Notes under the pieces: generated by a model | Databases searched by the model: none | Told to the model about the DNA's origin: nothing | What the model saw: only the letters and a program-made list of their open reading frames with translations | Program-made: the position numbers and the translations under genes | Shown: in pieces, positions 7,116 through 17,839 of the stretch | How the letters are laid out: every line of letters begins with the position of its first letter | Position numbering within the stretch: position 1 is the first letter of the stretch | Source: an uncultured virus (IMG/VR IMGVR_UViG_3300034418_005550) | Taxonomy: Duplodnaviria; Heunggongvirae; Uroviricota; Caudoviricetes | Strand: one strand, 5' to 3' | IMG/VR virus record: IMGVR_UViG_3300034418_005550 | DNA: 20,000 nucleotides

Positions 7116-8225
7116 TTAATATCTAGCACTTGCTACTTTCTTAGTTAAATGATTGTTAAATCTTGCAACCATTCTCGTAGTTCCAGTAGCACATTGCTTG
7201 ACACTTTTAGCACCTTTAAGCATAACTTCATTAGTTACACCACAATCTTTTAGACATTGTTCGGTATGATTAAATATTCCTAACCAATGGACATCTCTTA
7301 GTTTATATTCTTCTATTAATTTAATTTGCATTTCATGTCCTAAAAATCTTCCAACAAGCATTAATAATTGACTTGTGAAATATTCATCGTGGTCGTTATT
7401 ACAACCTGCACCTTGATGAGCAAGTTCGTGCAATAAAGTTAAATCAGTTGCCCACTTTTTCAATATAATTCTTCCGCCCCAAGTGTAATAAGATGAGCCT
7501 TCATAACTATTAACTAATTCTATATTTATATTTTTATCGAAATATTTCTTATAAAAGAAGTCGCTAAATATTTTAGTCTTAACATTTTTACGAACTATCT
7601 TTTCTAGTTCTTCAGTAGATAGTTTATTTTCGTTCTTAACATTTTTATATGCATATTTATTCTTTAGTAACTTTTCGTTCCAAGTTTCATTATTTTCTAA
7701 TATTGGTTTAGATATTTCTAAATTCAATTCATATGTATTTGCATAATATTGATTACCTGCTTTATCGAAATATCTTCTTCTTCTTGGTGTCATACATCCC
7801 ATGTACATGTGCCACTCATATCCTTGCTCATTAGGATAAAGTTTGGAATATTTTTCTGCTAACTTCCAAAAGGTTTCAAATATTTCTAAGTCCTTTTCAA
7901 ATTTAGGGGCAGGTGGTGGATTTTTATAATCATTAAAATGGTAATCATATTGATTAAATTTATATTCTAATTTTTCATCAATTATATATTCCATTTTAGG
8001 AAAGCCCCAACTATCCCTACTTATTCCGTCACTTGGTTCTATAAACTCCCCATTATCGAAAACTACTTTTTCAATAACTCCATTTGCGCCAATTATAAAA
8101 GTTCTTTTTCTTAAAACTTTTTTCTCAAGATTATTAGAATTAAATTTTCTAACATCAGGCATAATGTCAAAAGTTTTTGGCATAGCCCATTCGGAACGAT
8201 AAACTGCTTTTTTCTGATTTACCAT
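7116..8225 (-). CDS. Protein with C-terminal HExxH zinc metallopeptidase-like domain
   Basis: LLHELAHQ...DHDEYF (HExxH plus a third His); own promoter and SD AAGGAG. Confidence 0.7.
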   Translation of the reverse strand: MVNQKKAVYRSEWAMPKTFDIMPDVRKFNSNNLEKKVLRKRTFIIGANGVIEKVVFDNGEFIEPSDGISRDSWGFPKMEYIIDEKLEYKFNQYDYHFNDYKNPPPAPKFEKDLEIFETFWKLAEKYSKLYPNEQGYEWHMYMGCMTPRRRRYFDKAGNQYYANTYELNLEISKPILENNETWNEKLLKNKYAYKNVKNENKLSTEELEKIVRKNVKTKIFSDFFYKKYFDKNINIELVNSYEGSSYYTWGGRIILKKWATDLTLLHELAHQGAGCNNDHDEYFTSQLLMLVGRFLGHEMQIKLIEEYKLRDVHWLGIFNHTEQCLKDCGVTNEVMLKGAKSVKQCATGTTRMVARFNNHLTKKVASARY

Positions 8226-12939: not shown

Positions 12940-13479
12940 TTATTTAACTAATGATAAAAATTCGTTTCTAGTTTCGCTTTCTTCTCTAAATACTCCACGC
13001 ATAACTGAAGTAATCATTTGTCCGTCAGTCTTAATTCCTCTTGCAACCATACATAGATGGGTTCCTATTCCATAAACTGCTACATCATATGTATTTACTA
13101 AATCTCTAACTTCATTTGCAATATCAGAAACTAGTTTTTCTTGTAGTTGTAATTTATGTGCGTGTTTATGTGCTATTCTAGCAAATTTAGATAATCCTAA
13201 AACTTTATCTCTAGTTATATAACCAATTGCTATTTCTGAACTAAACGGCATTAAATGATGTTCACATAAAGACCAAACTTTTATTCCTTTAACTATAACC
13301 ATTTGGTCTGCTTTTACTGCTTCAAAAGTTGTTCCAATTTTTCCTGCGTCATAATCTATAAACTCTTTCCAAAACTTTGCAACTCTTTTTGGTGTTTCTA
13401 ATAATCCATCTCTATTTGGGTCTTCTCCAATTTCAATTAATAATTCTTTTATTAATTTTTCTATTTTTTCTTGTTGCAT
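12940..13479 (-). CDS. folE: GTP cyclohydrolase I
   Basis: GL.ETPKRVA, SLCEHHLMPF, GLSKFAR, QLQE, HLCMVARG. Confidence 0.95.
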   Translation of the reverse strand: MQQEKIEKLIKELLIEIGEDPNRDGLLETPKRVAKFWKEFIDYDAGKIGTTFEAVKADQMVIVKGIKVWSLCEHHLMPFSSEIAIGYITRDKVLGLSKFARIAHKHAHKLQLQEKLVSDIANEVRDLVNTYDVAVYGIGTHLCMVARGIKTDGQMITSVMRGVFREESETRNEFLSLVK

Positions 13480-14213
13480 TATTTACCTCTTTCATCTGAC
13501 CATAACAAGACATGCAATCTTGGAGATAAGTTATATCCTCTTTTTAGTATTTCATCTGATAGTTGCACCATATTTATAAAATGGTATTTATTATTTTTGC
13601 CTTCAGGCATTATATAAACATTTTTTAAATCGTTTTCTTTTACTATTTCATCTACTTCAAATAAGTCATCTATTTCTTGTACTACAAATTTAAAAGCATA
13701 GTTTTGCGAATATTGCATATATTGTTCTAATACTTTTGGTTTAATAGTTTTTTCTTTTGGCATACCTGCATTTGATAATTTAGGACTAATATTAAAGTAA
13801 TCTATAACATCAAAAAACTCATCATTTTTAGCTAATATTGTTCCATTTGTTTCAATTTCAATAACAAATCCTTTTTGTCTTAGATTTTTCATTACATGAA
13901 ATAATTTACTTTGTTGGCTCATTGGTTCGCCACCAGTAAAAACAATATGACTTCCAAAAGGTAAATTAAGGCTCATTATTTGTCCTACTACTTGCTCAAC
14001 TGTAAAGCCAATAGTTTCTTTTTTAGGGTCATACTTAACTCCATTTTTACCTTTCCAGTCCCAAGTGTATGGAGTATCGCACCAATCACAAGTTAAATTG
14101 CAACCACTAACACGAATAAATGCACTAATCTTTCCAATAGTTTGCCCCTCGCCTTGAAATGTAGGTCCAAAAATTTCATTTATTCTAATTAAAGGTAAAG
14201 TTTTAGTATTCAT
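13479..14213 (-). CDS. queE: 7-carboxy-7-deazaguanine synthase (radical SAM)
   Basis: EIFGPTFQGEG, GCNLTCDWCDT, TGGEP, IETNGT, ISPKL, SPRLH. Start ATG 14213, or TTG 14225. Confidence 0.95.
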   Translation of the reverse strand: MNTKTLPLIRINEIFGPTFQGEGQTIGKISAFIRVSGCNLTCDWCDTPYTWDWKGKNGVKYDPKKETIGFTVEQVVGQIMSLNLPFGSHIVFTGGEPMSQQSKLFHVMKNLRQKGFVIEIETNGTILAKNDEFFDVIDYFNISPKLSNAGMPKEKTIKPKVLEQYMQYSQNYAFKFVVQEIDDLFEVDEIVKENDLKNVYIMPEGKNNKYHFINMVQLSDEILKRGYNLSPRLHVLLWSDERGK

Positions 14214-14580
14214 AATAACTTGCAATAGTTTTATCAGTTTCTTTTACACTTACTTTATTTAAAATATCTTTTTCTCCATATATTTCAATAAACATTGCTT
14301 CAAATTCTTTATAAAAATGTTTAGCCATTTTTTCAGCAGTAGGATTAAAGTTTAAAACATCGTTTAAATGCCTATGGTCTAATTTATTATCTATATATTC
14401 TTTAATAAAATTTAATTCTCCATAGTCAATTATGAAACCAACTTCATCTAATCTCATAGATATTAACTCAACAATTACTACATAATTATGTCCATGCAAC
14501 CTAGCACATTGGTGTTCTTTTGGTAAATTAAGTAATTGATGACTTGCAGAAAAAGTAAATTCTTTAGCTATTGAGTACAT
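14203..14580 (-). CDS. queD: 6-carboxy-5,6,7,8-tetrahydropterin synthase
   Basis: FSASHQL, CARLHGHNY, LDHRHLND, PTAE, ET motifs. Confidence 0.95.
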   Translation of the reverse strand: MYSIAKEFTFSASHQLLNLPKEHQCARLHGHNYVVIVELISMRLDEVGFIIDYGELNFIKEYIDNKLDHRHLNDVLNFNPTAEKMAKHFYKEFEAMFIEIYGEKDILNKVSVKETDKTIASYYEY

Positions 14581-14593
14581 TTCTTACAACCTT

Positions 14594-14654
14594 TCAATGT
14601 TTATGGTCAAAAAAGACCTGTGAGCTTTTGTTCTCTCGGTAGGAAAAAGCATTC
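14594..14654 (-). repeat. Dispersed intergenic repeat, copy 4 (inverted), between queC and queD
   Basis: Reverse complement GAATGCTTTTTCCTACCGAGAGAACAAAAGCTCACAGGTCTTTTTTGACCATAAACATTGA aligns with copies 1 and 2. Confidence 0.85.
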
Positions 14655-14668
14655 ATTGGGTAGTAGCC

Positions 14669-15451
14669 CTACTTATTCTCTTGAAATTCTTGTTGTAATT
14701 TAAGAGCGTTTTCTAAGACTTCGTCCCAACCTCCTACATACTCAACTGGGTCTTGTGTTCCTAATTGCCAAAAAGCTAATATTCGTTCAACATCAGAGCC
14801 AGTTTTTCCACTAGCTCTTCCTTTTTCATCAGGTGCATAACTTGTATTAGTATTTTTTAGAACTGTATTAAAGTCTAAATTTAACTTAACGCAGTTTGCG
14901 TCAGTATCTTGCAATATAGTAAATTTATCTCCATTTAAGTAAGGAAGTTTTAAACTTACTAAATCACTATCCCAATTGCCTACTTTAAAAGCATTCATTG
15001 CCTCTACATAAAATTCAGGTCTGCAATCAGGATAAATTGCGTGGTCGCCACTATGAACTCCAAGTCCAATATCTACTTGGCAATTTTCTTTTGTTGCTAT
15101 TGATAATGCATAACCTGCAATCATAGAAAAGAAAATCATATTTCTATTTGGAACTACTGTAAGTTTCATATTTTCTTGCTCATAAAAGCCCTCTGGCACA
15201 TCAGTATCGCTACTAACTAATGCAGAGTTATATAAATTACCTATTTGAGATACATCTAATACTGTATGTTCTACTTCATAGCCATTTTCTTTTAAATAAG
15301 CTAAATTATCAGATAATCTTTCTAATTCAAGTTTATGTTTTTGTCCATAATCAAAACTTAATGCAGAAACTTTATAATCATTTGCTAAAAAATTAATTAA
15401 AAGTCCTGTACTATCCATGCCTCCACTAAGGCTTAATACTGCTCTTTTCAT
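14669..15451 (-). CDS. queC: 7-cyano-7-deazaguanine (preQ0) synthase
   Basis: PP-loop SLSGGMDS, SFDYGQKH, VVPNRN, HSGDHAIYPDCRPEF. The C-terminal Zn cysteines are absent. Confidence 0.92.
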   Translation of the reverse strand: MKRAVLSLSGGMDSTGLLINFLANDYKVSALSFDYGQKHKLELERLSDNLAYLKENGYEVEHTVLDVSQIGNLYNSALVSSDTDVPEGFYEQENMKLTVVPNRNMIFFSMIAGYALSIATKENCQVDIGLGVHSGDHAIYPDCRPEFYVEAMNAFKVGNWDSDLVSLKLPYLNGDKFTILQDTDANCVKLNLDFNTVLKNTNTSYAPDEKGRASGKTGSDVERILAFWQLGTQDPVEYVGGWDEVLENALKLQQEFQENK

Positions 15452-15846
15452 TATTTCTCCAAATATCCTACTGAAGTAGTTTCAATTCCACCTCTTTTAG
15501 ATTGTTTATTAGTTACTTTTATCCATTTAGGCTCTAAAGTATCAAATAATTTTTGTGCAATATCACTTGCTAATGCCTCGCAAAAATGTCCTACTTCTCT
15601 AAATGTCCATAAATATAGCTTTAATGATTTACTTTCAATACATAATTCATCAGGCTGATATTCAATAGTTAATTCTCCAAAGTCAGGTTGTCCTGTCATT
15701 GGACATAAACTTGTCAATTCATCAGTCCAAAATTTTACTGTTTGAGTATTTTTTGGTGCAGGAAAAGTTTCAAGTTGGTCTAATGGATTTCTTGTCTTTT
15801 TTCCTAATATAGTTAGGTCTTTAGTATATTCTGGCTCATGTGCCAT
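15451..15846 (-). CDS. queF: NADPH-dependent preQ0 reductase (unimodular QueF)
   Basis: Catalytic CPMTGQPD, QueF motif ESKSLKLY, RGG; FCE in place of the usual FHE. Confidence 0.9.
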   Translation of the reverse strand: MAHEPEYTKDLTILGKKTRNPLDQLETFPAPKNTQTVKFWTDELTSLCPMTGQPDFGELTIEYQPDELCIESKSLKLYLWTFREVGHFCEALASDIAQKLFDTLEPKWIKVTNKQSKRGGIETTSVGYLEK

Positions 15847-15851
15847 TTTGT

Positions 15852-15886
15852 CCTCCTAGTTTTGTTTAAGGTTTTCTAGTACTTGA
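15852..15886 (-). promoter_or_regulatory. preQ1-I riboswitch-like element overlapping the queF SD
   Basis: UCAAG-UACUAGAAAAC-CUUAA-ACAAAACUAG-GAGG: a short P1, loop CUAG able to pair with tail CUAG, A-rich tail; immediately 5' of queF. Confidence 0.55.
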
Positions 15887-15917
15887 GATAAGGTTAGCAG
15901 GTATAAAAAATTTGTCT

Positions 15918-15945
15918 ATTATATAATCTGTTCTCGCTATAACAA
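15918..15945 (-). promoter_or_regulatory. Promoter of the que operon
   Basis: TTGTTA-16bp-TATAAT; same -35 hexamer as at 12756-12761 and 19304-19309. Confidence 0.65.
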
Positions 15946-15961
15946 CTAAAATAAAAAAAAC

Positions 15962-15989
15962 TTAGAACAAAAAGTAGAAAAAGTATAAT
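15962..15989 (+). promoter_or_regulatory. Putative promoter of the large ncRNA (divergent from the que promoter)
   Basis: TATAAT at 15984-15989; weak -35 TTAGAA; A-tract upstream. Confidence 0.55.
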
Positions 15990-15995
15990 ATAGGT

Positions 15996-16826
15996 TTATT
16001 ATATTTTTTATAAGGTTATGGTTAGCCTTAAAAAATAGCAACCGAGTAGAGCGAGAGCTAACCCAAGTAAAATTGGTAGGTAAGAAATTAGAAATTCAAC
16101 CTTGATGAAGACTTAAACAGAGAGCTTTTGTGAGCATAAACTAGTACCTGAAAATGAAACTTGGGGAGGTAATTAGCCCACTTGTTAAGAAGTAAAGCAA
16201 GAAGTAAGAAGTAAGGTAGGCGTATTGACTACAGGATTGAGAATTTCCATTAAAAAATAATTTAAAGTAGGATTGGTATAAACTTAACTAGCCAAAAATC
16301 TAGAGTATGCTCTCACAAAAGCTCTTTGTAACTGAGTTCTTATGGATATGAGTAGTTGTTTGGCAAGTAGTTCAGGAATGTACCTGCCTTTAGTTGAAAT
16401 ACTTTAGGGCTACGCTATAAAGCATATATTGATTCGAAGCAATATGAACTACTTAAAACTTATAAACCATTTAGTAACCAATCCTGAAATACGGCATGTC
16501 GAAAAATGTTAGATAAGTAATTTAAGTAAGCAAACAGATACGCTCATATCCGTAAGGACTTAGTTAATTTGAGAGATTAAAGATATAGGTTGTGAAGGTA
16601 ACTTCTCATTTGGGAAGCTTCATCTCAGGTGGTCGTAGCGTAATGCACGAGCCATATACTGAAAGGTATATAAGCCTGAAGGAATAACTTGCAGTACAAT
16701 ATCCTTTTAGGTTAGTTGTGGAGTGTGGTGGGTTGTTAATTTAATCAAAGTGGTTTTGACAAATTACTTTGAACTTTAACTGTAAGCAAGATTGTCATTA
16801 TTTAGCCTGTATCTTTAATCTCTTAA
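15996..16826 (+). ncRNA. Large structured ncRNA, family unassigned (GOLLD/ROOL size class); may extend to 16949
   Basis: No ORF of 60 aa or more in the track. Three long closing helices with G-U pairs, multiple GNRA hairpins, inter-domain complementarities, upstream -10 box and downstream terminator. Confidence 0.85.
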
Positions 16827-16862
16827 TTTAGATTTATAACTCCCAATAGGGTAGAATAGATG

Positions 16863-16949
16863 ATATATTCACTGATAACTCCGTGATTATTATCTAACAT
16901 ACGAGAAGACTTTAAGGACTGGCAACAGTCTTTAAGGTCTTCTTTTTTT
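16863..16949 (+). ncRNA. Putative antisense sRNA, or 3' tail of the large ncRNA
   Basis: Possible -10 TAGAAT (16852-16857); hairpin UCAC/GUGA exposing anti-SD AACUCC; UUAUUAUCUAACAUAC complementary to three mRNA leaders; terminator. Confidence 0.55.
16904..16949 (+). terminator. Rho-independent terminator of the ncRNA locus
   Basis: 18-bp stem AGAAGACTTTAAGGACTG-GCAA-CAGTCTTTAAGGTCTTCT (two G-U) followed by a T-run on the plus strand. Confidence 0.9.
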
Positions 16950-17439
16950 ACATTGGTGTAGGTTTTACAATATATCTTTCTTGAGTTTTAGGTAATGGTG
17001 CTAATTTTTTAGTGATTATATTCCAATAAGTAAAAGGTAAGCCAGTTTTTGATATTCCATGCCACCTGTAGCCTAATTTTTCATAAAATTTAATACTTGG
17101 TTTATTTGCAAAAAACCTTAATAACATTACATAATTTTCTTTCATATCTTCTTCTAACATTTTCATCATTTCTGCACCAATATTTTTACCTCTATATTGT
17201 TCTAATACGAAAAAATGTCTTAAAGTACAATGTCTTGGTTCTCTTTTTGTATAAGAAATAAACATAAAACCTTTATCTTCTAAGCTAAAAACTTTAGAAC
17301 TTTCTTTATCCCATTGTTTTTCAACTCGCCAATCATACAAAGCATTTTTTAAATGACTTTTAGAACTTAAACTACCACCTTTTGTATGTTCTATTTCTTT
17401 TAATAATTTTTCCATTTCTTTTTCAGTTTTTATTATCAT
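16948..17439 (-). CDS. GNAT-family acetyltransferase
   Basis: FFVLEQYRGKNIGAEMM (motif A) and ANKPSIKFYEKLGY (motif B). Start moved to ATG 17439. Confidence 0.85.
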   Translation of the reverse strand: MIIKTEKEMEKLLKEIEHTKGGSLSSKSHLKNALYDWRVEKQWDKESSKVFSLEDKGFMFISYTKREPRHCTLRHFFVLEQYRGKNIGAEMMKMLEEDMKENYVMLLRFFANKPSIKFYEKLGYRWHGISKTGLPFTYWNIITKKLAPLPKTQERYIVKPTPM

Positions 17440-17839
17440 AGTCCCAACACTTTCTACTTGCGTTCCAATGGTGTAAGCCGTCATTAATCATTAACCATTT
17501 AGCTACTTTTGTAGCTACTATTTTATTAAATGGAGTAGTTGTTATTTTTAATTTAGGTTTTAACCAAGCCCAAGTTTTATCATTAAATTGAAATAATCCT
17601 CTATCAGTTGTACCATTTTTATTGTAATTTATAGCGTTTTCTCTGCCAGAACTTTCACAATAAATAATTAGTAAAGGTATTAAAGCTTTATCTAAACCAA
17701 ATTCATCAACTATTAATTCAATATGTTCTTCTACTGCACTAACTTTATATTGTATTTCTCTGCATTCAATATATTCATTTAAAGTATCAGGAGTTAAAAA
17801 AGGGTAAGGTATAGCACAAGCGATTATTAACTCTAACAT
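17423..17839 (-). CDS. Lytic transglycosylase (SLT/lysozyme-like)
   Basis: IIYCESSG...NKNGTTDRGLFQFN..TW...W; hydrophobic N-terminus. Confidence 0.8.
   Translation of the reverse strand: MLELIIACAIPYPFLTPDTLNEYIECREIQYKVSAVEEHIELIVDEFGLDKALIPLLIIYCESSGRENAINYNKNGTTDRGLFQFNDKTWAWLKPKLKITTTPFNKIVATKVAKWLMINDGLHHWNASRKCWDYDNKN

What the first reader, a model, noticed from the sequence alone, without database searches (positions are those of the whole stretch)
15996..16826. ~830-950-nt phage ncRNA built from three tandem helix-closed domains
Seen: the only long ORF-free gap in a densely coding genome, purine-rich on the plus strand, bounded by TATAAT (15984) and a plus-strand terminator (16904-16949). 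Domain 1: 16117-16134 pairs with 16312-16329 (18 bp, 1 G-U) and extends through CATA/TATG and CTAG/CTAG. Domain 2: 16330-16353 pairs with 16542-16565 (24 bp, 4 G-U), with inner helix 16365-16374/16445-16454. Domain 3: 16571-16591 pairs with 16804-16824 (21 bp, 3 G-U). Every deviation in these helices is G-U on the plus strand, which points to selection at the RNA level. GNRA-capped hairpins are also present (AGC-GAGA-GCT, GAAG-GTAA-CTTC, TATACT-GAAA-GGTATA). Known: GOLLD and ROOL are phage-associated giant ornate RNAs of similar size and unknown function. Inference: a divergent member of one of them or a new class, here transcribed divergently from a deazaguanine operon and with no tRNA in the window.
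Basis: partly seen in the sequence, partly recalled or inferred. Interest (0 to 1): 0.92.

Follow-up and report, generated by a model that had tools for sequence, protein, structure and literature searches.

The report
Modular structured RNA of aquatic phages
The gap holds a roughly 0.9-kb non-coding phage RNA built from three helix-closed modules; it belongs to a family found in about 28 uncultured aquatic phage contigs that matches no curated RNA family and has no known function.

Summary
Window 16117-16830 folds on the + strand into three directly abutting domains closed by helices of 18, 25 (33 with its extension) and 28 bp. They are preceded by a promoter and a conserved leader, and followed by a + strand terminator.

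Rfam 15 gives no match, so this is not GOLLD, ROOL, OLE or an intron. Pattern scans of IMG/VR built from conserved blocks found homologues on about 28 viral contigs.

Covariation supports the fold:
- D1: 93.6% of cells paired, against 37-51% with slid partners; 10 pairs changed on both sides.
- D3 helix: 99.2% paired; 5 of 20 pairs changed on both sides.
- Helix mismatches: 18 G-U against 1 A-C in 7 helices.

The modules are shuffled, duplicated and hybridised between phages. Closing helices and a few core hairpins are conserved; the interiors vary.

In the usual arrangement the array lies just downstream of a recombination exonuclease gene, on the same strand, with its own promoter and no terminator. 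In this phage it is inverted, moved next to the deazaguanine operon, given a terminator, and absent from a 98%-related phage.

Function is unknown. My best inference is a stand-alone structured RNA whose long helices are RNase III-type processing sites. Rivals are an RNA-only multimer, a giant 5' leader, or an origin RNA.

The parts
15958..16823 (+). Segment present here but missing from the closest different relative, L007 (QueF 98% identical). It is an accessory, self-contained RNA module.
   Evidence: blastn: window 15850-15957 and 16824-16949 match L007 with only 48 nt between them. The right edge is fuzzy by about 12 nt (read).
15975..16002 (+). Sigma-70-like promoter: TAGAAA, 16 nt, TATTAT (-10 at 15997-16002). 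The start site is inferred near 16009.
   Evidence: Consensus scan. It aligns with TTGGTA-17-TATTAT of L009 (E 3e-8). The usual members carry TTGCAA-16-TATTGT at the same place. No start site has been mapped.
16009..16116 (+). Conserved leader: 5'-terminal hairpin HP1 (16012-16029), single-stranded block AAAAAATAGCAAC (16030-16042), and hairpin HP2 AGC-GAGA-GCT (16050-16059).
   Evidence: Homologous to the L009 leader. 14 distinct leaders are listed. HP1 has three stem versions with the pairing kept (GGTTA/TAGCC, AGAGATT/TGGTCTCT, AGTTAC/GTAAC). HP2 stems are GTG/CAC, GTC/GAC, GTGG/CCAC and AGC/GCT (read).
16117..16329 (+). Domain D1. Closing helix 16117-16134 / 16312-16329, continued by 16135-16138 / 16308-16311 and CTAG 16141-16144 / 16300-16303. 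It holds an invariant hairpin ACUU-GUUAAG-AAGU (16180-16193) whose loop is complementary to the invariant CUUAAC (16283-16288); this is a candidate pseudoknot.
   Evidence: Alignment A6 of 7 sequences: 45 consensus pairs, 10 changed on both sides, 93.6% of cells paired against 37-51% when slid. The pseudoknot is my reading of invariant blocks; there is no covariation to test it.
16329..16566 (+). Domain D2. Closing helix 16329-16353 / 16542-16566 plus 16355-16362 / 16531-16541, 33 bp with two bulges. Inner hairpin 16425-16446 has the 8-nt loop A-UUCGAA-G (16432-16439).
   Evidence: Alignment A7: 99% of cells paired against 28-47% when slid; 20 of 27 outer pairs never vary; G-U pairs are conserved in 7 of 7 sequences. 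Loop variants: AUUCGAAG 16 times, AUUAUAAG 9, GUUAUAAA 1, GUUCGAAG 1.
16565..16830 (+). Domain D3. Closing helix 16565-16592 / 16803-16830. Interior hairpins include GAAG-GTAA-CTTC and ATATACT-GAAA-GGTATAT.
   Evidence: Alignment A8 of 6 sequences: 20 pairs, 5 changed on both sides, 99.2% paired against 25-52% when slid.
16831..16902 (+). 3' tail shared with relatives that lack the module. It holds hairpin 16857-16895. Segment 16876-16902 is complementary to the ribosome-binding region of a + strand gene elsewhere in the genome.
   Evidence: Fold. The match to G000:C1:8816-8842 is 89% over 27 nt, E 3.8e-4. The tail is present in L007.
16903..16950 (+). Intrinsic terminator: 19-bp stem, 4-nt loop, T run. 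It abuts the stop codon of the convergent GNAT gene.
   Evidence: the only terminator-like site in 15400-17500. Also.

Best explanation
This is an independently transcribed, non-coding, modular structured RNA of about 0.8-0.94 kb on the + strand. It belongs to a family carried by a lineage of uncultured aquatic siphophages.

Shown:
- It has its own promoter and a conserved 5' leader.
- Three domains abut with zero linker, each closed by a long helix. The pairing, including the G-U wobbles, is kept across homologues while the sequence changes.
- Closing helices and a few core hairpins are conserved; the interiors are variable.
- Modules are duplicated, swapped and hybridised between phages.
- In this phage the whole unit has been inverted, moved and fitted to a terminator. 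It therefore cannot act as a leader of downstream genes here.

Inferred:
- The RNA acts as RNA in trans.
- The 18-33-bp closing helices, about two or more helical turns, are substrates of a double-strand-specific nuclease, the host RNase III. Cleavage would cut the array free of flanking transcript and into separate stable domain RNAs, as the processing stems of rRNA operons do.
- The variable interiors are the cargo. Possible roles are decoys, sponges or binding sites in the phage-host conflict.

My odds: structured functional RNA about 0.9; RNase III-type processing about 0.4; the cargo's role is unknown.
For: Anatomy and strand:
- Searches give the helices.
- Mismatches in 7 helices of the window and L009 are 18 G-U, 1 A-C and 3 other. 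Counting interior positions only, 14 against 1.
- Across the family, 92 helices of 18 bp or more are found on the sense strand and 15 on the antisense strand, over 34 loci.
- Purine and G>C skew flips to the + strand only inside the gap.
- Promoter and terminator.

Homologues:
- The L009 leader matches at E 3e-8 and is followed by four abutting helix-closed domains and a terminator.
- The L218 D1 matches at E 7e-12.
- The D1 pattern gave 10 true loci of 19.
- The D2 19-mer gave 25 stretches on 24 contigs; 23 carry two or more further family motifs.

Covariation: D1, D2, D3. In all three, 0 of 500 shuffles reach the observed pairing or covariation score, and slid partners fall to 25-52% paired.

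Module shuffling: D2 is duplicated in L268. L262 has a hybrid Dx helix, outer part from D1 and inner part from D2. L260, L268 and L269 have the D3' variant. L218 combines D1 with the Dc domain of L009.

Accessory status: the module is absent from L007 and L008.

RNA libraries: 6 RNA-labelled runs from 6 studies hold parts of the stretch. Contigs of RNA runs cover 16059-16267, 16205-16804 and 16598-16805.

Strand hint: the X15 contig runs past 16804 into one adapter read-through, while X17 at 15871, on the - strand que mRNA, runs into the other. I recall these as the mate-2 and mate-1 adapters. In a stranded library that puts the RNA here on the + strand.
Against: - Transcription and strand are not shown. 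The runs are contigs, DNA can be present in RNA libraries, the whole phage is covered, and the adapter argument rests on recalled adapter identities and an assumed library type, taken from two different runs.
- RNase III cleavage is untested. The one discrete end seen (16804/16805 in X15 and X18) lies at the inner edge of the D3 helix, not inside it.
- In the usual members there is no T run within 250 nt after the last domain: 2 of 25 stretches have one. Genes follow on the same strand, which fits a leader.
- The D2 helix is almost invariant. Its conservation could serve sequence-specific recognition rather than structure.
- The antisense strand also folds far better than shuffles.
- The host is unknown and no cultured relative exists.
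- Alignments hold only 6-7 sequences, some closely related, so covariation counts are not independent events.
Confidence: 0.5

Rival explanations
1. The RNA is an RNA-only homomultimer or scaffold, in the manner of ROOL, GOLLD or OLE. The abutting closing helices stack into a rod. Palindromic loops and GNRA loops join copies into a defined particle, and the variable interiors are linkers.
For: - There are zero-nucleotide linkers between helices in the window, and 1-2 nt at the first two junctions of L009, but 11 nt at its third.
- The D2 hairpin loop is a 6-nt palindrome flanked by purines. The only two common versions, UUCGAA (16 times) and UUAUAA (9 times), are both palindromes.
- GNRA-capped hairpins are enriched on the sense strand of L009: 12 against 3.8, with 0 of 500 shuffles reaching it.
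- A conserved core with variable regions is also what is described for GOLLD and ROOL (PMC12286853, passages read).
Against: - A single CG-to-AU double change keeps a palindrome by chance about 1 time in 4.
- GNRA enrichment in the window is weak and is also seen on the antisense strand.
- Module number varies from 2 to 5, which is awkward for a fixed cage geometry.
Confidence: 0.15
2. The array is a giant cis-acting 5' leader of the operon that follows the exonuclease gene. It would serve for mRNA processing or stabilisation, timing or antitermination. On this view the window's copy is a displaced, possibly functionless relic.
For: - In 19 distinct contigs the exonuclease gene lies upstream on the same strand.
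- It is followed by a terminator, a promoter, the leader and the array, and then small genes with ribosome-binding sites about 60-70 nt after D3.
- Only 2 of 25 stretches have a T run within 250 nt after the array.
Against: - The window's copy and the L009 and L218 copies are inverted, end in strong terminators and have no downstream gene. Yet they keep all helices intact, including wobble pairs.
- A conserved promoter-like TTGCAT...TATAAG sits between D3 and the next gene in the usual members, so those genes need not depend on the array's promoter.
Confidence: 0.2
3. The region is a replication element. It would be either a pre-primer or origin transcript like ColE1 RNA II or the T4 origin RNAs, or a strand-specific single-stranded DNA origin whose hairpins tolerate G-T pairs.
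For: - It is a long untranslated, promoter-driven, highly structured stretch next to recombination and replication genes.
- The usual members have no terminator.
- A strand-specific G-T bias would also fit folded single-stranded DNA.
Against: - The unit works in either orientation and at two genomic sites.
- It is dispensable in L007 and L008.
- Its interiors are hypervariable.
- No AT-rich unwinding element or iterons were seen in the repeat scan.
- It has RNA-type features: a terminator and GNRA loops.
Confidence: 0.07
4. The region is a DNA-level repeat structure: tandem miniature transposons with terminal inverted repeats, invertible segments, or decayed genes.
For: - Each domain is bounded by inverted repeats of 18-28 bp.
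- The segment is an indel between close relatives.
- One L009 domain encloses an 88-aa ORF.
Against: - Repeat mismatches are G-U on one strand, 18 against 1, and the pairs covary.
- There is no second copy in the genome.
- No target duplications or recombinase gene were found.
- The 88-aa ORF has no relative other than itself among 5.8 billion clusters, within the 48-154 aa length range searched.
- There is no ORF of 32 aa or more in the window's gap.
Confidence: 0.02

Closest known systems
GOLLD and ROOL RNAs (large ornate phage and prophage RNAs; Rfam families)
   Same: Both are phage-encoded, ORF-free, several hundred to about 900 nt and densely structured. Both have conserved parts beside variable parts, come from aquatic metagenomes and have unknown function. 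Kissing-loop-type candidates are present. The features of GOLLD and ROOL are taken from passages of PMC12286853.
   Different: There is no covariance-model match at any threshold tried and no tRNA nearby. The architecture is a string of self-contained helix-closed modules whose number and order change between phages. The usual position is downstream of an exonuclease gene.
RNase III processing stems of rRNA operons and RNase III sites of phage T7 early mRNA (recalled)
   Same: Long-range 5'-3' helices of about two or more turns enclose each unit of a multi-unit transcript, and the units follow each other directly. This offers a way to free units from a transcript that has no terminator.
   Different: Cleavage is not shown. 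The enclosed units are not rRNA. T7 sites are local hairpins, not helices that enclose 130-550 nt.
Palindromic kissing loops (HIV-1 dimerisation initiation site; phi29 pRNA loop-loop rings) (recalled)
   Same: The D2 hairpin has an 8-nt loop with a 6-nt self-complementary core flanked by purines. Natural variants change two central bases together and stay self-complementary.
   Different: There is no experimental or statistical proof, since the chance of staying palindromic is about 0.25. The context is a DNA phage ncRNA.
ColE1 RNA II and phage T4 origin transcripts (recalled)
   Same: A promoter-driven, long, folded, untranslated RNA beside replication and recombination genes, often without its own terminator.
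   Different: No origin features were found. The unit is dispensable in close relatives and is invertible.
Bacterial and phage Y RNAs (YrlA/YrlB) (recalled)
   Same: Modules whose 5' and 3' ends pair into a long stem carrying an effector domain. They are sometimes tandem and phage-associated.
   Different: No Rfam match. No Ro/Rsr or RtcB gene was seen in the genome.

Membership tests
GOLLD RNA | Match to the Rfam covariance model (sequence plus structure) | tested here: not met
   cmscan of the whole window at gathering scores gave 0 matches. On 15800-17000 at E up to 10, there were 11 weak matches and none to GOLLD. The profile is in Rfam according to PMC12286853.
ROOL RNA | Match to the Rfam covariance model | tested here: not met
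   as for GOLLD. Relatives L009, L007, L008, L010 and L011 also gave 0 matches.
GOLLD / ROOL | Frequent neighbourhood of tRNA genes (typical, not obligatory) | tested here: not met
   ARAGORN found 0 tRNA or tmRNA genes in the 20-kb window.
Other large RNAs in Rfam (OLE, HEARO, group I/II introns, RNase P, tmRNA, riboswitches) | Match to any Rfam 15 model | tested here: not met
   no match reaches a gathering score. The best E-values are about 1-10 to unrelated small families.
Structured RNA (generic) | Base pairs kept through compensatory changes in homologues | tested here: met
   D1: 10 of 45 pairs changed on both sides. D3 helix: 5 of 20. D2: 5 of 43. Paired cells are 93.6-99.2%, against 25-52% with slid partners.
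RNase III-processed multi-unit precursor | Uninterrupted duplexes of about 20 bp or more flanking each unit | tested here: met
   18-, 33- and 28-bp helices in the window. Family chains have helices of 16-31 bp.
RNase III-processed multi-unit precursor | Staggered cleavage within the helices, in vivo or in vitro | not testable with these tools
   Only contigs of RNA runs are available. The one recurrent end, 16804/16805, lies at the helix edge.
Miniature inverted-repeat transposon | Multiple dispersed copies, target duplications, DNA-level symmetric repeats | tested here: not met
   The genome holds a single copy. Mismatches are strand-asymmetric, 18 G-U against 1 A-C.
Kissing-loop dimerisation hairpin | Self-complementary loop core kept through variation | tested here: inconclusive
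   UUCGAA and UUAUAA are both palindromes, found in 27 of 35 hairpins listed; the other 8 have a longer insert. This is one event and has weak statistical weight.

The most novel reading that the evidence does not exclude
A lineage of aquatic phages keeps a plug-and-play RNA array. A conserved promoter and leader drive a string of helix-closed modules. The invariant wobble-marked helices are the handling sites, for cutting or for coaxial and kissing assembly into an RNA-only particle. The fast-changing interiors are exchangeable cargo used against the host, as decoys, sponges or anti-defence RNAs. This would be a new, cassette-like way of organising non-coding RNA in viruses.
Probability: 0.2. 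Interest if true: 0.9.

Novelty: new variant of a known kind. Interest (0 to 1): 0.8.

Why it matters
Large, intricately folded RNAs without proteins are rare. The few phage examples, GOLLD and ROOL, turned out to form RNA-only cages. Here is another approximately 0.9-kb class with covariation support and about 28 natural variants.

Its build is unusual: serial self-contained modules that recombine, duplicate and invert as units. The family supplies ready-made tests:
- natural module swaps;
- a natural knock-out relative;
- a copy that stands alone with its own terminator;
- defined candidate sites for RNase III cutting, a pseudoknot and a palindromic kissing loop.

It also shows that long ORF-free gaps in uncultured phage genomes can hide conserved RNA genes that current annotation and Rfam miss.

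Tried and rejected
Searches that found nothing:
- Rfam at the gathering score on the window, on L009/L007/L008/L010/L011 and on L154/L141/L174/L189/L192, and in E-value mode on the window gap, on L009 and on L155: nothing meaningful.
- blastn (distant mode) of the window gap, the L009 RNA and the L262 array against 50,697 phage records: no match.

Searches for homologues that gave little:
- A leader pattern in viral contigs gave 18 stretches. Only the window's twin and L009's contig were real.
- A stricter leader pattern in 185,579 species genomes gave 13 stretches, all chance hits inside unrelated sequence.
- Anchoring on neighbouring proteins gave relatives but few arrays. The anchors were GNAT, QueF, SLT and the exonuclease alignment in viral contigs, and QueF in metagenomes. 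blastn on these loci found only L007's flanks.
- What finally worked was L009's exonuclease as anchor. This led to L218, then to patterns built from D1 and D2.

Other negative or unusable results:
- The 88-aa ORF in L009 domain Db has no relative but itself within the 48-154 aa range searched.
- PHROGs and Pfam on the whole genome show no reverse transcriptase, RNA ligase, Ro or RNase III gene.
- The covariance model R1, built on a different hairpin motif found in related phages, does not match the window or L009 at E up to 10.
- RNA-run contigs cannot rank expression. Contig depth figures, and the thinner cover to the right of 16805 in X15-X18, are not used as evidence.
- Four literature searches listed nothing describing this RNA. 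I saw only the listings and abstract starts, apart from passages of PMC12286853.

Full report
**Setting.** The window is bases 11899-31898 of a 38,869-bp IMG/VR virus record that CheckV rates complete. GC content is 31.5% and almost every gene lies on the - strand.
- Pfam and PHROGs show a siphovirus-like head and tail module, terminase, a ParB/DUF6610 protein, a FolE-QueE-QueD-QueC-QueF deazaguanine cluster, a GNAT acetyltransferase, an SLT lysozyme and a metallophosphoesterase-type recombination exonuclease.
- The gap 15847-16947, between QueF and GNAT, is the only ORF-free stretch longer than 310 nt. Its longest ORF is 31 aa.

**Observation.**
- Counted base by base, D1 has 17 Watson-Crick pairs plus 1 G-U; D2 has 21 plus 4 G-U; D3 has 23 plus 4 G-U and one U-U.
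- The arms abut: 16329 and 16565/16566 are shared boundaries.
- The antisense strand also folds far better than shuffles (z -7.0 against -6.6) but with 62 kcal/mol less stability. The strand call therefore rests on the wobble pairs, on composition (purines 55% inside against 42% outside), on the + strand terminator and on the promoter.

**It is not a known family.** No Rfam 15 model matches the window at gathering scores. None matches the gap meaningfully at E up to 10. GOLLD, ROOL and OLE profiles are in Rfam (PMC12286853, passages read). No tRNA is present. No cultured phage record resembles the gap.

**An accessory unit.**
- A contig with 98% identical QueF (L007) matches both flanks but has 48 nt in place of 15958-16823.
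- L008 has only 57 nt between the GNAT and QueF genes.
- A more distant relative, L009 (QueF 89%, exonuclease 47% identical), carries a 1.6-kb ORF-poor stretch at another place, between the exonuclease and SLT genes.
- Its first 90 nt align to window 15964-16042 (E 3e-8). These are followed by four abutting domains closed by 21-27-bp helices and by a terminator.
- Over the seven helices of the two loci, mismatches are 18 G-U, 1 A-C and 3 other. Interior positions only give 14 against 1 by my count from that output.

**Finding the family.** Leader patterns and most protein anchors gave little. L009's exonuclease as anchor brought L218. Its contig-truncated RNA starts inside a domain homologous to the window's D1 (E 7e-12) and continues with L009's third domain.
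- A pattern from two invariant D1 blocks then gave 19 loci, 10 of them real.
- A 19-nt invariant piece of D2 gave 25 stretches on 24 contigs, 23 with two or more further family motifs.
- Counting contig names, the family has about 28 viral contigs, including a 100% identical twin of the window's locus.

**Covariation.**
- D1, 7 sequences: 45 consensus pairs, 10 changed on both sides, 93.6% of cells paired against 37-51% with partners slid by 1-3 columns. 0 of 500 shuffles reach the observed pairing or covariation score.
- D3 closing helix, 6 sequences including L009's fourth domain: 20 pairs, 5 changed on both sides, 99.2% paired against 25-52%.
- D2, 7 sequences: 99% paired, but 20 of 27 outer pairs never vary. 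Several G-U pairs are invariant.
- The leader hairpins exist in three or four stem versions that keep pairing.
- Helices of 18 bp or more number 92 on the sense strand and 15 on the antisense strand over 34 loci.
- Caveat: the sequence sets are small and partly closely related.

**Architecture.** Arrays hold two to five modules.
- D1-D2-D3' in L260 and L269.
- D1-D2-D2-D3' in L268.
- D1-Dx-D2-D3 in L262. The Dx helix is a hybrid of the D1 outer part and the D2 inner part.
- D0-D1-other domains in L263 and L271.
- D1-Dc in L218.
- Closing helices, an invariant D1 hairpin (16180-16193) whose loop is complementary to an invariant block (16283-16288), and a D2 hairpin with a palindromic loop are conserved. 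The loop is UUCGAA in 16 cases and UUAUAA in 9. The rest of each interior is replaced freely.

**Context.**
- In 19 distinct contigs the exonuclease homologue lies upstream on the same strand.
- The order there is: exonuclease stop, a terminator hairpin, a TTGCAA-16-TATTGT promoter, the leader, the array, no T run (2 of 25 stretches have one within 250 nt), then a promoter-like element and small genes.
- The window, its twin, L009 and L218 are the exceptions. In them the array is inverted relative to the exonuclease gene and ends in a terminator.
- The unit therefore keeps its structure where it cannot serve as a leader.

**Expression.**
- Six RNA-labelled runs of six studies hold 27-67% of the sampled words, and 14 DNA runs hold 93-99%.
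- Contigs of four RNA runs cover the whole phage, including 16059-16267, 16205-16804 and 16598-16805. This does not prove transcription.
- Two runs stop at 16804/16805.
- In X15 the contig continues into an adapter read-through. It differs from the one that follows the que mRNA end at 15871 in X17.
- I recall these as the mate-2 and mate-1 adapters. In a stranded library that would mean opposite RNA strands, so + here. I rate this a weak hint.

**Mechanism.**
- Shown: a conserved, covarying, modular fold with its own promoter.
- Inferred: it acts as RNA in trans. The long helices are RNase III-type processing sites, which would also solve the missing terminator in the usual members. The variable interiors are cargo.
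- Rivals: an RNA-only multimer, a giant leader, an origin RNA or single-stranded DNA origin, and DNA repeats.

**Novelty.** Four full-text searches listed nothing like it. I file it as a new class within the known kind of large ornate phage RNAs.

Noticed in passing
L154 6020-6750 (- strand); L174 5510-5960; L141 7250-7900; L189 5760-6400; L192 8820-9280: Related phages carry a second, unrelated ORF-free structured region (exonuclease 76-81% identical; 16 of 80 loci by motif). It is built of tandem domains closed by repeated 24-28-bp helices (TAGGTAGCTT... / ...AAGCTATCTA) that allow alternative pairings. It lies upstream of a GDSL-lipase-like gene on the same strand. No Rfam match.
   Followed up: partly
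L155 5960-6022 (- strand) and 21 other matches listed: A conserved hairpin of about 63 nt. It has a covarying closing stem, an AGUA/GAA internal loop (loop-E-like, recalled), a short second stem and an invariant GCCCUGUU in the apical loop. It sits either at the 3' end before a T run or at the 5' start of the second RNA region. Model R1 finds it 22 times in 79 related loci, once in L271, and not in the window or L009.
   Followed up: partly
window 16876-16902 and G000:C1:8816-8842: The tail of the RNA is complementary (24 of 27 nt) to the ribosome-binding region and start of the only + strand gene in the tail module, a 133-aa protein of unknown family. It may be an antisense pairing site, or a duplicated leader of a lost - strand gene. 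The segment is also present in L007, which lacks the array.
   Followed up: partly
window 15870-15871: Contigs of two RNA runs (X16, X17) end here and run into adapter, about 25 nt upstream of the QueF start codon. This may be a 5' end of the deazaguanine operon mRNA. A - strand promoter-like site TTGTTA-16-TATAAT lies at 15945-15918.
   Followed up: no
window 12940-15846 and 7116-8225: The deazaguanine cluster has FolE, QueE-like, QueD, QueC and a QueF-like gene. No transglycosylase (DpdA/Tgt) was recognised by Pfam or PHROGs. The 369-aa ORF 7116-8225 has no family match.
   Followed up: no
L262 1145-1456; L268 (sense coordinates 744-1233): L262 has a hybrid module whose closing helix joins the outer part of the D1 helix to the inner part of the D2 helix. 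L268 has a tandem duplication of D2. Both point to recombination at the shared helix sequences as the way modules are shuffled.
   Followed up: partly
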